Source: Escherichia coli (GTDB lineage Bacteria; Pseudomonadota; Gammaproteobacteria; Enterobacterales; Enterobacteriaceae). Taken from it: a stretch of DNA of 64,000 bases. The stretch is taken from NCBI RefSeq assembly GCF_003334405.1, contig NZ_QOWM01000002.1; one strand, written 5' to 3'. The position numbers and the translations under genes were made by a program. Position 1 is the first letter of the stretch, and each line of letters opens with the position of its first letter. The notes under the pieces are model-generated. The model was not told the DNA's origin, ran no database searches, and saw nothing but the letters and a program-made list of their open reading frames with translations. Below, piece after piece: positions 19,192 through 19,224 of this stretch.

Positions 19192-19224
19192 TCCCCTCGC
19201 TCGCCCCTACCGGGTGAGGGGAAA
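19192..19224. repeat. GC-rich imperfect palindrome (TTCCCCTCGCTCGCCCCTACCGGGTGAGGGGAA) after nanA; related to element at 1331-1382
   Basis: Inverted repeat directly after the nanA stop codon. Confidence 0.5.

What the first reader, a model, noticed from the sequence alone, without database searches (positions are those of the whole stretch)
19192..19224. The nanA-nanT spacer is almost entirely a GC-rich hairpin
The gap between nanA and the nanT start (19294) carries this stable hairpin but no obvious T-run on the plus strand. It could act as a partial terminator or RNA-stability element that tunes the nanA to nanTEK expression ratio.
Basis: inference. Interest (0 to 1): 0.3.

Follow-up and report, generated by a model that had tools for sequence, protein, structure and literature searches.

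The report
Repeat-derived hairpin after nanA gene
The hairpin just after the E. coli nanA gene is real and very stable, but it looks like a decayed copy of a common intergenic repeat rather than a terminator. The measured RNA end and the known small-RNA control site of this spacer lie further downstream.

Summary
The window is E. coli (identical to K-12 MG1655 over 17300-19460), with nanA 18292-19185, a 108-nt spacer and nanT from 19294.

**The hairpin is real.** Arms 19187-19203 and 19211-19227 pair over 17 bp (14-bp core), with a 7-nt loop, -26.8 kcal/mol and z -5.3. It starts 2 nt after the nanA stop and has no T-run on either strand. It fills 38% of the spacer, not "almost all".

**What it is.** It occurs only in the genus Escherichia (6 of 80 species loci).
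- Pseudocitrobacter and Enterobacter kpr-6 carry complete BoxC/TMECO repeats at the same place.
- Salmonella and Citrobacter carry REP elements there.
- Three species have no hairpin.
- Hairpin 1 has the TMECO type-B C-block, CCG linker and last G-block, but lacks the middle block. I read it as a collapsed BoxC relic.

**The rest of the spacer.**
- 19233-19244 is a perfect 12-nt complement of the Spot 42 5' end; nanT is a published Spot 42 target.
- 19260-19281 is a second, conserved hairpin that abuts the nanT ribosome-binding site.
- A published 3'-end map puts a strong nanA terminus at 19286, 5 nt after hairpin 2. None is reported at hairpin 1.

**Best reading.** It is a non-terminating, repeat-derived stem-loop, at most a back-up exonuclease barrier for nanA mRNA. 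Ordinary; low interest.

The parts
18292..19185 (+). nanA (N-acetylneuraminate lyase) coding sequence; stop codon TGA at 19183-19185
   Evidence: ORF list; RefSeq annotation of identical sequence; 0 mismatches to K-12 MG1655 over 17300-19460
19187..19227 (+). Hairpin 1, the reported feature. 5' arm 19187-19203, loop 19204-19210, 3' arm 19211-19227. Conserved core stem 19190-19203 / 19211-19224. Read as a collapsed BoxC/TMECO type-B repeat: C-block, then CCG, then the last G-block GGGTGAGGG at 19212-19220.
   Evidence: fold and inverted repeat; GGGTGAGGG signature; aligned to full TMECO copies in related genera; 94.8% of cells paired across Escherichia
19233..19244 (+). TCTGTACCCTAC: perfect 12-nt complement of Spot 42 nt 1-12 (GUAGGGUACAGA). 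Predicted Spot 42 pairing site in the nanT leader, 50-61 nt upstream of the AUG.
   Evidence: duplex -22.4 kcal/mol; the only copy of this 12-mer on the window's + strand; spf sequence; strong sites also in Leclercia, Silvania and E. pulveris; nanT as Spot 42 target: PMC12612679, PMC3295665
19245..19259 (+). A/U-rich linker (AATTTTCATACCAAA) predicted to be mostly single-stranded. It overlaps the ATTCATACCAAAGCG block shared by the genera that carry hairpin 2.
   Evidence: mean unpaired probability 0.75; columns invariant in 8 sequences
19260..19281 (+). Hairpin 2: GCG-U-GUGGGC-AUC-GCCCAC-CGC. It directly abuts the nanT Shine-Dalgarno sequence and is conserved in several genera, with compensatory changes.
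   Evidence: -15.6 kcal/mol, z -2.6; 6-bp consensus stem; 2 pairs with both-side changes in 14 sequences; analogous hairpins in Buttiauxella, Leclercia and E. pulveris
19279..19289 (+). Published RNA 3' terminus assigned to nanA (peak at 19286 = MG1655 3372582, minus strand), 5 nt 3' of hairpin 2 and inside the nanT Shine-Dalgarno sequence
   Evidence: PMC10687069 Supplementary Data 2; meaning of the signal value; coordinate mapping verified
19282..19296 (+). nanT ribosome-binding site GGGAGA (19282-19287) and start codon ATG (19294-19296). CGGGAGAG is nearly invariant across the 80 species loci.

Best explanation
Hairpin 1 is the transcribed remnant of a BoxC (also called PIT or TMECO) intergenic repeat that landed just after the nanA stop codon in an ancestor of Escherichia. 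It lost its middle G-rich block, which left a plain 14-17 bp stem-loop. It does not terminate transcription: RNA polymerase reads through into nanT-nanE-nanK-nanQ. In the polycistronic mRNA it is a passive structural element. It may act as a second-line barrier to 3'-to-5' exonucleases, protecting the nanA cistron once the RNA is cut downstream, for example in the A/U-rich linker after Spot 42-Hfq pairing at 19233-19244. It may also keep the neighbouring Spot 42 site free of pairing with nanA coding sequence. The elements that visibly set the nanA:nanT ratio are elsewhere in the spacer: the Spot 42 site, and hairpin 2 with the mapped 3' end at 19286. Shown: the structure, the absence of terminator features, the repeat affinity, the lineage restriction, the position of the mapped 3' end and the Spot 42 complementarity. 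Inferred: the origin by collapse of a TMECO, and any stabilising effect.
For: 1. The stem-loop is strong and non-random.
2. There is no U-tract and no terminator call.
3. The 3' arm CCGGGTGAGGGG matches the TMECO type-B 3' end CCGGGGTGAGGGG apart from one missing G. GGGTGAGGG occurs only 3 times in 64 kb (0.22 expected); the other 2 are in the bona fide TMECO at 1339-1374 (consensus in PMC4666352).
4. In the alignment of orthologous spacers, hairpin 1 occupies the place of a complete TMECO in Pseudocitrobacter faecalis and Enterobacter kpr-6. The same flank AAACGCATC follows in E. coli and P. faecalis.
5. A natural example of the proposed collapse exists. In one E. coli strain the TMECO site in the lldD-trmL spacer reads CCCTCGCCCCTCCGGGGTGAGGGG, a simple hairpin. 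Among the rows listed, it is the only hit to hairpin 1 outside the nan locus.
6. The hairpin is found only in Escherichia: 6 of 80 species loci. Of the rest, 31 have REP-type elements, others have unrelated hairpins, and 3 have none.
7. Within Escherichia the 3' arm never varies, and all 4 variable core positions of the 5' arm are transitions that keep pairing.
8. Published 3' ends map 5 nt after hairpin 2, and 5 nt after the nanT-nanE hairpin, not at hairpin 1.
9. PIT/BoxC elements showed no promoter or terminator activity (cited in PMC4666352).
Against: 1. No experiment addresses this hairpin directly.
2. The 3'-end datasets come from cells not induced with sialic acid, and the stored supplementary files were truncated. 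A minor 3' end at about 19232 could therefore have been missed.
3. The element fails the formal three-block TMECO consensus, and its C-block is interrupted (CCCTCGCTCGCCCC). Descent from BoxC rests on position and partial sequence identity, not proof.
4. Covariation is not significant: 374 of 500 shuffles reach the observed score. Selection for the stem is therefore not demonstrated.
5. Hairpin 2 already stops exonucleases coming from downstream, so a barrier role for hairpin 1 may be redundant.
6. Trabulsiella species have a 32-33 nt nanA-nanT spacer in which no hairpin was found.
Confidence: 0.55

Rival explanations
1. Neutral relic. The hairpin is leftover repeat DNA with no measurable effect on nan expression, and it persists only because it is harmless.
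For: It is restricted to one genus and replaced by unrelated repeats or nothing elsewhere. No 3' end is mapped at it. Covariation is not significant. No function has ever been assigned to BoxC/TMECO elements (PMC4666352).
Against: The 50-nt hairpin query is covered at least 80% in 5409 of 5426 complete E. coli genomes, and the hairpin is kept across all Escherichia species sampled. Every core substitution preserves pairing. 63 of 80 species have some strong hairpin starting within 20 nt of the nanA stop despite complete sequence turnover. That hints that a stem-loop at this position is favoured.
Confidence: 0.28
2. Translation-coupled brake on NanA. The stem starts 2 nt after the stop codon, so a terminating ribosome must melt about 10 bp. 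By analogy with REP hairpins within 15 nt of a stop codon, this could stall termination, trigger tmRNA tagging and lower NanA output. (The REP precedent is Liang, Rudd and Deutscher 2015, cited from memory; the paper was not retrievable here.)
For: The geometry is shown by the sequence. The fold with the ribosome footprint blocked shows most of the stem is lost. The stem is stable at -26.8 kcal/mol.
Against: There are no data on NanA tagging. nanA is the first and, by read counts, the best represented cistron: the TRS terminus signal of 0.94 means little read-through beyond the spacer. Ribosomes unwind such stems routinely.
Confidence: 0.08
3. One reading: a partial terminator or attenuator. 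This could be intrinsic without a U-tract, or a Rho-dependent site as reported for some BIME elements.
For: It is a GC-rich stem in an intercistronic gap, and a large drop in reads occurs somewhere in the spacer.
Against: There is no U-tract on either strand and no terminator call. The mapped 3' end is 59 nt further downstream, at hairpin 2. PIT/BoxC elements lacked terminator activity. The C-poor, G-rich segment that follows is not a typical rut site.
Confidence: 0.05
4. Part of a stable regulatory fragment. The roughly 100-nt piece from hairpin 1 to the 3' end at 19286 carries the Spot 42 complement between two protective stem-loops. It could accumulate and titrate Spot 42 as a sponge.
For: A perfect 12-nt seed complement lies between two hairpins, and a strong 3' end sits right after hairpin 2.
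Against: No 5' end, northern band or RIL-seq chimera was found; the supplements were not available. No promoter-like site lies upstream on the + strand within nanA. The 3' end fits whole nanA mRNAs equally well.
Confidence: 0.04

Closest known systems
BoxC / PIT / TMECO repeats of E. coli and relatives (consensus CCCTCNCCC-N3-6-GGGNGAGGG-N3-GGGNGAGGG; Holder et al. 2015, PMC4666352)
   Same: It is intergenic and shares the C-block CCCTCGC.., the CCG linker of type B and the terminal block GGGTGAGGG(G). It sits where complete copies sit in the orthologous spacer of Pseudocitrobacter and Enterobacter kpr-6. It has no terminator features, as reported for the family.
   Different: It has only two of the three blocks, so it cannot form the intrastrand triplex that defines the family. 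The C-block carries an extra TCGC. It is not among the 23 MG1655 copies listed. The same sequence occurs at only one locus in nearly every E. coli genome (median 1 place per genome).
REP/BIME elements acting as intercistronic mRNA stabilisers (malE-malF, hisJ-hisQ; Newbury/Higgins 1987-88, from memory)
   Same: It is a stable GC-rich stem-loop in the gap between a highly needed first cistron and downstream cistrons. Salmonella and Citrobacter have genuine REP pairs at exactly this place.
   Different: It has no REP consensus. No 3' end is mapped at its base. No stabilising effect has been measured.
Spot 42 control of a downstream cistron inside an operon (galETKM: galK; nanT listed as a target by Beisel and Storz 2011 and Beisel et al. 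2012, via PMC12612679)
   Same: The spacer carries a perfect Spot 42 region-I complement and would allow nanT to be repressed while nanA is kept.
   Different: The pairing site is next to the hairpin, not in it. It lies 50-61 nt upstream of the AUG, so direct occlusion of the ribosome-binding site is unlikely. The published pairing coordinates could not be checked because the primary papers are not held.
Intrinsic (Rho-independent) terminators
   Same: A GC-rich stem with a short loop directly after a stop codon.
   Different: There is no 3' U-tract. The flanks are reversed (U's 5', A's 3'). No 3' end is mapped there.

Membership tests
Intrinsic terminator | GC-rich stem-loop of 5-20 bp with a short loop | tested here: met
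   17 bp (14-bp core), 7-nt loop, -26.8 kcal/mol
Intrinsic terminator | Run of U (at least 5 in 8 nt) directly 3' of the stem | tested here: not met
   ACGCATCTG follows the stem. No call by the terminator scan on either strand
Intrinsic terminator | RNA 3' ends accumulate a few nt after the stem in vivo | tested here: not met
   No terminus in the 33726xx range in the held supplements of PMC7815308 and PMC10687069. The terminus in the spacer is at 3372582, 59 nt downstream. Caveat: cells were uninduced and the stored files were truncated.
BoxC / PIT / TMECO repeat | Three blocks: CCCTCNCCC, N3-6, GGGNGAGGG, N3, GGGNGAGGG | tested here: not met
   The two-block pattern search hits only 1339-1361 in the window, not the nan hairpin. 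The C-block is interrupted and the middle G-block is absent.
BoxC / PIT / TMECO repeat | Signature terminal block with type-B linker (CCG-GGGTGAGGG) | tested here: met
   CCGGGTGAGGGG at 19209-19220, one G short of the type-B consensus. The 9-mer occurs 3 times in 64 kb against 0.22 expected, and the other 2 are in a true TMECO.
BoxC / PIT / TMECO repeat | Homologous position occupied by family members in related genomes | tested here: met
   Complete TMECO copies at the same place in L008, L011 and L048, with degenerate ones in Kluyvera. The downstream flank is shared.
REP / BIME | REP consensus (GCCGGATG..CGCCTTATCCGGCCTAC-like) | tested here: not met
   0 REP motifs in the Escherichia spacers, against 2-5 in 31 other species. 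No repeat feature is annotated in NC_000913.3.
Hairpin-type mRNA decay barrier (functional class) | Upstream mRNA segment ends at the base of the stem and outlives the downstream segment | tested here: inconclusive
   A strong nanA 3' end exists but maps to hairpin 2. No half-life data are available.
Spot 42 target site | Contiguous complementarity to a single-stranded region of Spot 42 | tested here: met
   12 of 12 Watson-Crick pairs with Spot 42 nt 1-12 at 19233-19244, -22.4 kcal/mol, z about -5. This is adjacent to the hairpin, not within it.
Any Rfam family | Covariance-model match at or near the gathering score | tested here: not met
   Best hits score 14-16 bits with E-values of 4-5, far below gathering

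The most novel reading that the evidence does not exclude
The three spacer modules could form one device that couples nanA translation to Spot 42 control of nanT. Folding predicts that the untranslated nanA stop region (CGGGUGA) stacks on hairpin 1 and pairs with the Spot 42 site. It also predicts that a ribosome at the stop codon frees the G-rich 3' arm to pair with the CCCU of that site. The piece from hairpin 1 to the 3' end at 19286 might in addition persist as a Spot 42 sponge. Hairpin 1 would then be a co-opted repeat that gates small-RNA access, not junk.
Probability: 0.06. Interest if true: 0.55.

Novelty: new member of a known kind. Interest (0 to 1): 0.17.

Why it matters
It matters little on its own. 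It adds one more case of an enterobacterial intergenic repeat decaying into a plain hairpin inside an operon, and it corrects a tempting 'attenuator' reading. The useful by-product is an annotated map of the nanA-nanT spacer: the repeat hairpin, the Spot 42 site, the conserved hairpin next to the ribosome-binding site, and the mapped 3' end. That map tells anyone studying discoordinate expression of the sialic-acid operon which element to mutate first. The replacement of BoxC by REP or other hairpins at the same spot in 80 species is a small natural experiment on whether 'any stable stem-loop here' is what selection keeps.

Tried and rejected
1. Rfam scan of 18900-19500 at E <= 10 gave only chance-level hits.
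2. The promoter/terminator scan found nothing at the hairpin.
3. BLAST of the spacer and of the 50-nt hairpin against 5426 E. coli genomes showed it is single-copy, so it is not an active dispersed repeat. The phage collection gave only nan loci in mislabelled records.
4. A covariation test of hairpin 1 within Escherichia was not significant because there is too little divergence.
5. Literature searches for any description of a nanA-nanT hairpin, stem-loop or northern blot found nothing relevant.
6. The primary Spot 42 papers (PMC3072601, PMC3343335), the review PMC4829326 and PMC177433 (the id I recalled for Martinez et al. 1995) are not held.
7. 3'-end or interaction supplements were unavailable or silent for PMC9023263, PMC9122600, PMC6061677, PMC6131387 and PMC5145812.
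8. I could not identify which sheet (dataset) of the TRS supplement holds the nan rows.
9. An Hfq (ARN)n motif after the hairpin was considered and dropped: only two consecutive ARN triplets are present.
10. Minus-strand ORFs overlapping the spacer (19071-19424, 19207-19347) were treated as spurious. I did not test them; no annotated feature of NC_000913.3 lies in the spacer.

Full report
**Locus.** The window is Escherichia coli. Positions 17300-19460 are identical to K-12 MG1655 with 0 mismatches in 2161 nt. RefSeq annotation of the identical sequence gives nanR (17379-18170), nanA (18292-19185) and nanT (19294-20784), followed by nanE, nanK and nanQ. The nanA-nanT spacer runs from 19186 to 19293 and is 108 nt long. 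Window position p corresponds to MG1655 coordinate 3372574 + (19294 - p), on the minus strand.

**Observation.** The inverted repeat is real. Its arms are 19187-19203 and 19211-19227, with a 7-nt loop. As RNA, all 17 positions pair if G-U pairs are counted. The energy is -26.8 kcal/mol, against -12.5 +/- 2.7 for shuffles (z -5.3, none of 200 as good). The stem begins 2 nt after the TGA stop codon of nanA. No T-run follows on either strand, and the flanks are T-rich 5' and A-rich 3', the opposite of a terminator. The consensus scan calls no terminator there. The title claim is wrong: the hairpin covers 41 of 108 nt.

**What the hairpin is.** It matches no Rfam family. At least 80% of the 50-nt hairpin query is found in 5409 of 5426 complete E. 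coli genomes, and the same sequence occurs at only one locus in nearly all of them (median 1 place per genome). No repeat feature is annotated at this position in NC_000913.3.

Among the rows listed, the only hit outside the nan locus is in the lldD-trmL spacer of one strain. There the sequence reads CTCCCTCGCCCCTCCGGGGTGAGGGGAAAA. That spacer holds BoxC/TMECO copies 17 and 18 in MG1655. Copy 18 is CCCTCGCCCCTCCGGGGAGAGGGCCGGGGTGAGGGG (PMC4666352). The strain therefore carries copy 18 with its middle G-block deleted, which leaves a plain hairpin.

The nan hairpin has the same make-up: a C-block (CCCCTCGCTCGCCCC), two bases, then CCG and GGTGAGGGG. This is the type-B linker plus the last block of the published consensus CCCTCNCCC-N3-6-GGGNGAGGG-N3-GGGNGAGGG. 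The 9-mer GGGTGAGGG occurs three times in the 64-kb window, against 0.22 expected. The other two copies are in the genuine TMECO at 1339-1374, which is copy 14 of MG1655.

**Comparative evidence.** A scan of one genome per species found 80 loci with adjacent nanA and nanT. The spacers are 32 to 403 nt long. Their content falls into these groups:
- Hairpin 1 is present only in the six Escherichia species-level genomes.
- Pseudocitrobacter faecalis, P. vendiensis and Enterobacter sp. kpr-6 have one to five complete TMECO copies at the same place, and Kluyvera has degenerate ones.
- These genera share the downstream part of the spacer with E. coli (ATTCATACCAAAGCG, then hairpin 2, then GGGAGACTCAC). 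In P. faecalis the repeat is followed by AAACGCATC, as in E. coli.
- Salmonella, most Citrobacter, and many Enterobacter and Lelliottia carry REP/BIME-type palindromes instead (31 loci with at least 2 REP motifs).
- Raoultella, Edwardsiella, Phytobacter and others have unrelated hairpins.
- Two Trabulsiella genomes and Enterobacter RIT418 have essentially none.

Overall, 63 of 80 species have a hairpin of -13 kcal/mol or stronger that starts within 20 nt of the nanA stop. The position therefore attracts or retains stem-loops, but the particular sequence is lineage-specific.

Within Escherichia the 3' arm never varies. The four variable core positions of the 5' arm are all transitions that keep pairing (C-G to U-G, G-U to A-U, U-G to C-G). 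94.8% of cells are paired, against 47-69% for slid controls. The shuffle control is not exceeded (374 of 500), because there is too little divergence. The stem has been kept, but selection for it is not demonstrated.

**The rest of the spacer.** It contains three further elements.
- Spot 42 site. Positions 19233-19244 (TCTGTACCCTAC) are a perfect complement of nt 1-12 of Spot 42. I took the Spot 42 sequence from the annotated spf gene of MG1655. The duplex energy is -22.4 kcal/mol, and this is the only copy of the 12-mer on the window's + strand. Two papers list nanT among Spot 42 targets, citing Beisel and Storz 2011 and Beisel et al. 2012 (PMC12612679; PMC3295665). I could not read the primary papers, so the published pairing coordinates are unverified. 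Equally strong or slightly weaker sites, 35-48 nt before the AUG, occur in Enterobacter pulveris, Silvania, Leclercia and Phytobacter. Atlantibacter has a weaker site 22 nt before the AUG. The REP-type spacers have none.
- Hairpin 2. Positions 19260-19281 form a second hairpin (-15.6 kcal/mol, z -2.6) that abuts the nanT Shine-Dalgarno sequence GGGAGA. Its 6-bp core is conserved in 14 sequences from about nine genera, and two pairs show changes on both sides. Buttiauxella, Leclercia and E. pulveris have analogous stems of different sequence at the same place.
- Linker. Positions 19245-19259 are A/U-rich and predicted to be single-stranded.

**Experimental 3' ends.** The TRS reanalysis of E. 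coli K-12 RNAtag-seq data (PMC10687069, Supplementary Data 2) lists three termini in the operon:
- The first is at 3372579-3372589 (peak 3372582), annotated 'Alternative primary in TU, nanA'. Its signal is 0.937, with adjusted p of 1.4e-35, 1.7e-19 and 3.5e-30.
- The second is at 3371052, after nanT.
- The third is at 3368963, the primary end after nanQ.

The signal approaches 0 for full read-through and is high at strong termini. The first terminus is window 19286, 5 nt after hairpin 2 and inside the nanT ribosome-binding site. The second is window 20816, 5 nt after a hairpin at 20792-20811. No terminus in the 33726xx range, which includes hairpin 1, appears in that file. None appears in the held Term-seq tables of Adams et al. 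2021 either; those list only an ORF-internal end at 3373531, which is window 18337. Two caveats apply. The cells were not induced with sialic acid and the stored files were truncated. I also could not establish which dataset sheet holds the nan rows.

**Mechanism.** Hairpin 1 is not a terminator. It lacks the U-tract and has no mapped 3' end. The family it derives from was reported to lack promoter and terminator activity (PMC4666352).

The best-supported account is that it is a collapsed BoxC relic transcribed as part of the nan mRNA. By analogy with REP stabilisers (Newbury, Higgins and colleagues, from memory), it can block 3'-to-5' exonucleases. Exonucleases arriving from downstream meet hairpin 2 first, which is where the end is seen. 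Hairpin 1 would therefore matter mainly after an endonucleolytic cut between the two hairpins, for instance one provoked by Spot 42-Hfq pairing. This step is inferred, not shown.

A terminating ribosome must open about 10 bp of the 5' arm. Constrained folds show that most of the stem is then lost. This leaves room for a translation-coupled effect on NanA (rival 2) or on Spot 42 site accessibility (the novel case), but nothing supports either directly.

**Verdict.** The spacer does uncouple nanA from nanT, yet the evidence points to hairpin 2, the 3' end at 19286 and the Spot 42 site, not to the reported hairpin. The hairpin itself is an ordinary, unannotated, degenerate member of a known repeat class. 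Interest is low.

Noticed in passing
window 19260-19289: A second hairpin abuts the nanT Shine-Dalgarno sequence. It is conserved across about nine genera with two compensatory pairs. A published strong RNA 3' terminus (MG1655 3372582, signal 0.94) lies 5 nt after it, inside the ribosome-binding site, with no U-tract. Whether the end comes from termination, RNase cleavage or exonuclease trimming is unknown. This looks like the real nanA/nanT step.
   Followed up: partly
window 19233-19244: A perfect 12-nt complement to the 5' end of the small RNA Spot 42 lies 50-61 nt upstream of the nanT AUG, too far for simple ribosome-binding-site occlusion. Similar sites occur in Leclercia, Silvania, E. 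pulveris and Phytobacter, but not in the REP-type spacers of Salmonella and Citrobacter.
   Followed up: partly
window 1339-1374: A complete BoxC/TMECO triplex-motif repeat (CCCTCGCCCCTTTGGGGTGAGGGTTAGGGTGAGGGG), corresponding to copy 14 of the MG1655 list in PMC4666352.
   Followed up: yes
window 18337 (MG1655 3373531, minus strand): Adams et al. 2021 Term-seq lists a strong ORF-internal 3' end 45 nt into nanA. Hfq-CLASH (PMC7213987) lists a CpxQ (cpxP 3' UTR) chimera with the nanA start region (TCAGAGGTATTTATGGCAACGAATT, about 18280-18304). This may reflect early attenuation or small-RNA control of nanA itself.
   Followed up: no
window 20792-20816: The nanT-nanE spacer has a GC hairpin (GCCCGGTCTATGTACCGGGC) followed by CTTTC. 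A published 3' terminus (MG1655 3371052) lies 5 nt after it, making a second internal step in the operon.
   Followed up: partly
L001 1534-1633 (E. coli AREA_499, NZ_CP123328.1): A natural 12-bp deletion removes GAGACTCACAAT, which is most of the nanT Shine-Dalgarno sequence and the A of the start codon. RefSeq then annotates nanT from an upstream start at locus 1621, which falls within the hairpin 2 sequence. This strain probably expresses nanT poorly.
   Followed up: partly
L003-L082, first 20-120 nt after nanA: The same spot downstream of nanA is occupied by BoxC-type repeats, by REP/BIME pairs or by unrelated hairpins in different genera. The spacer type does not follow the expected species relationships: Escherichia groups with Kluyvera and Pseudocitrobacter, not with Salmonella and Citrobacter. 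This suggests recombination or repeated repeat turnover.
   Followed up: partly
window 18233-18256: Three GGTATA repeats (GGTATAACAGGTATAAAGGTATA) lie upstream of nanA. From memory, this is the known NanR operator. It is consistent with the locus assignment.
   Followed up: no
L052 (CACSKA010000008.1): A contig labelled Chryseobacterium sp. 18061 carries an enterobacterial nanA-nanT locus very similar to that of Citrobacter sp. 18056: same 71-nt spacer length, and identical over the 44 nt before the nanT start. This is probably a mislabelled or contaminated assembly.
   Followed up: no
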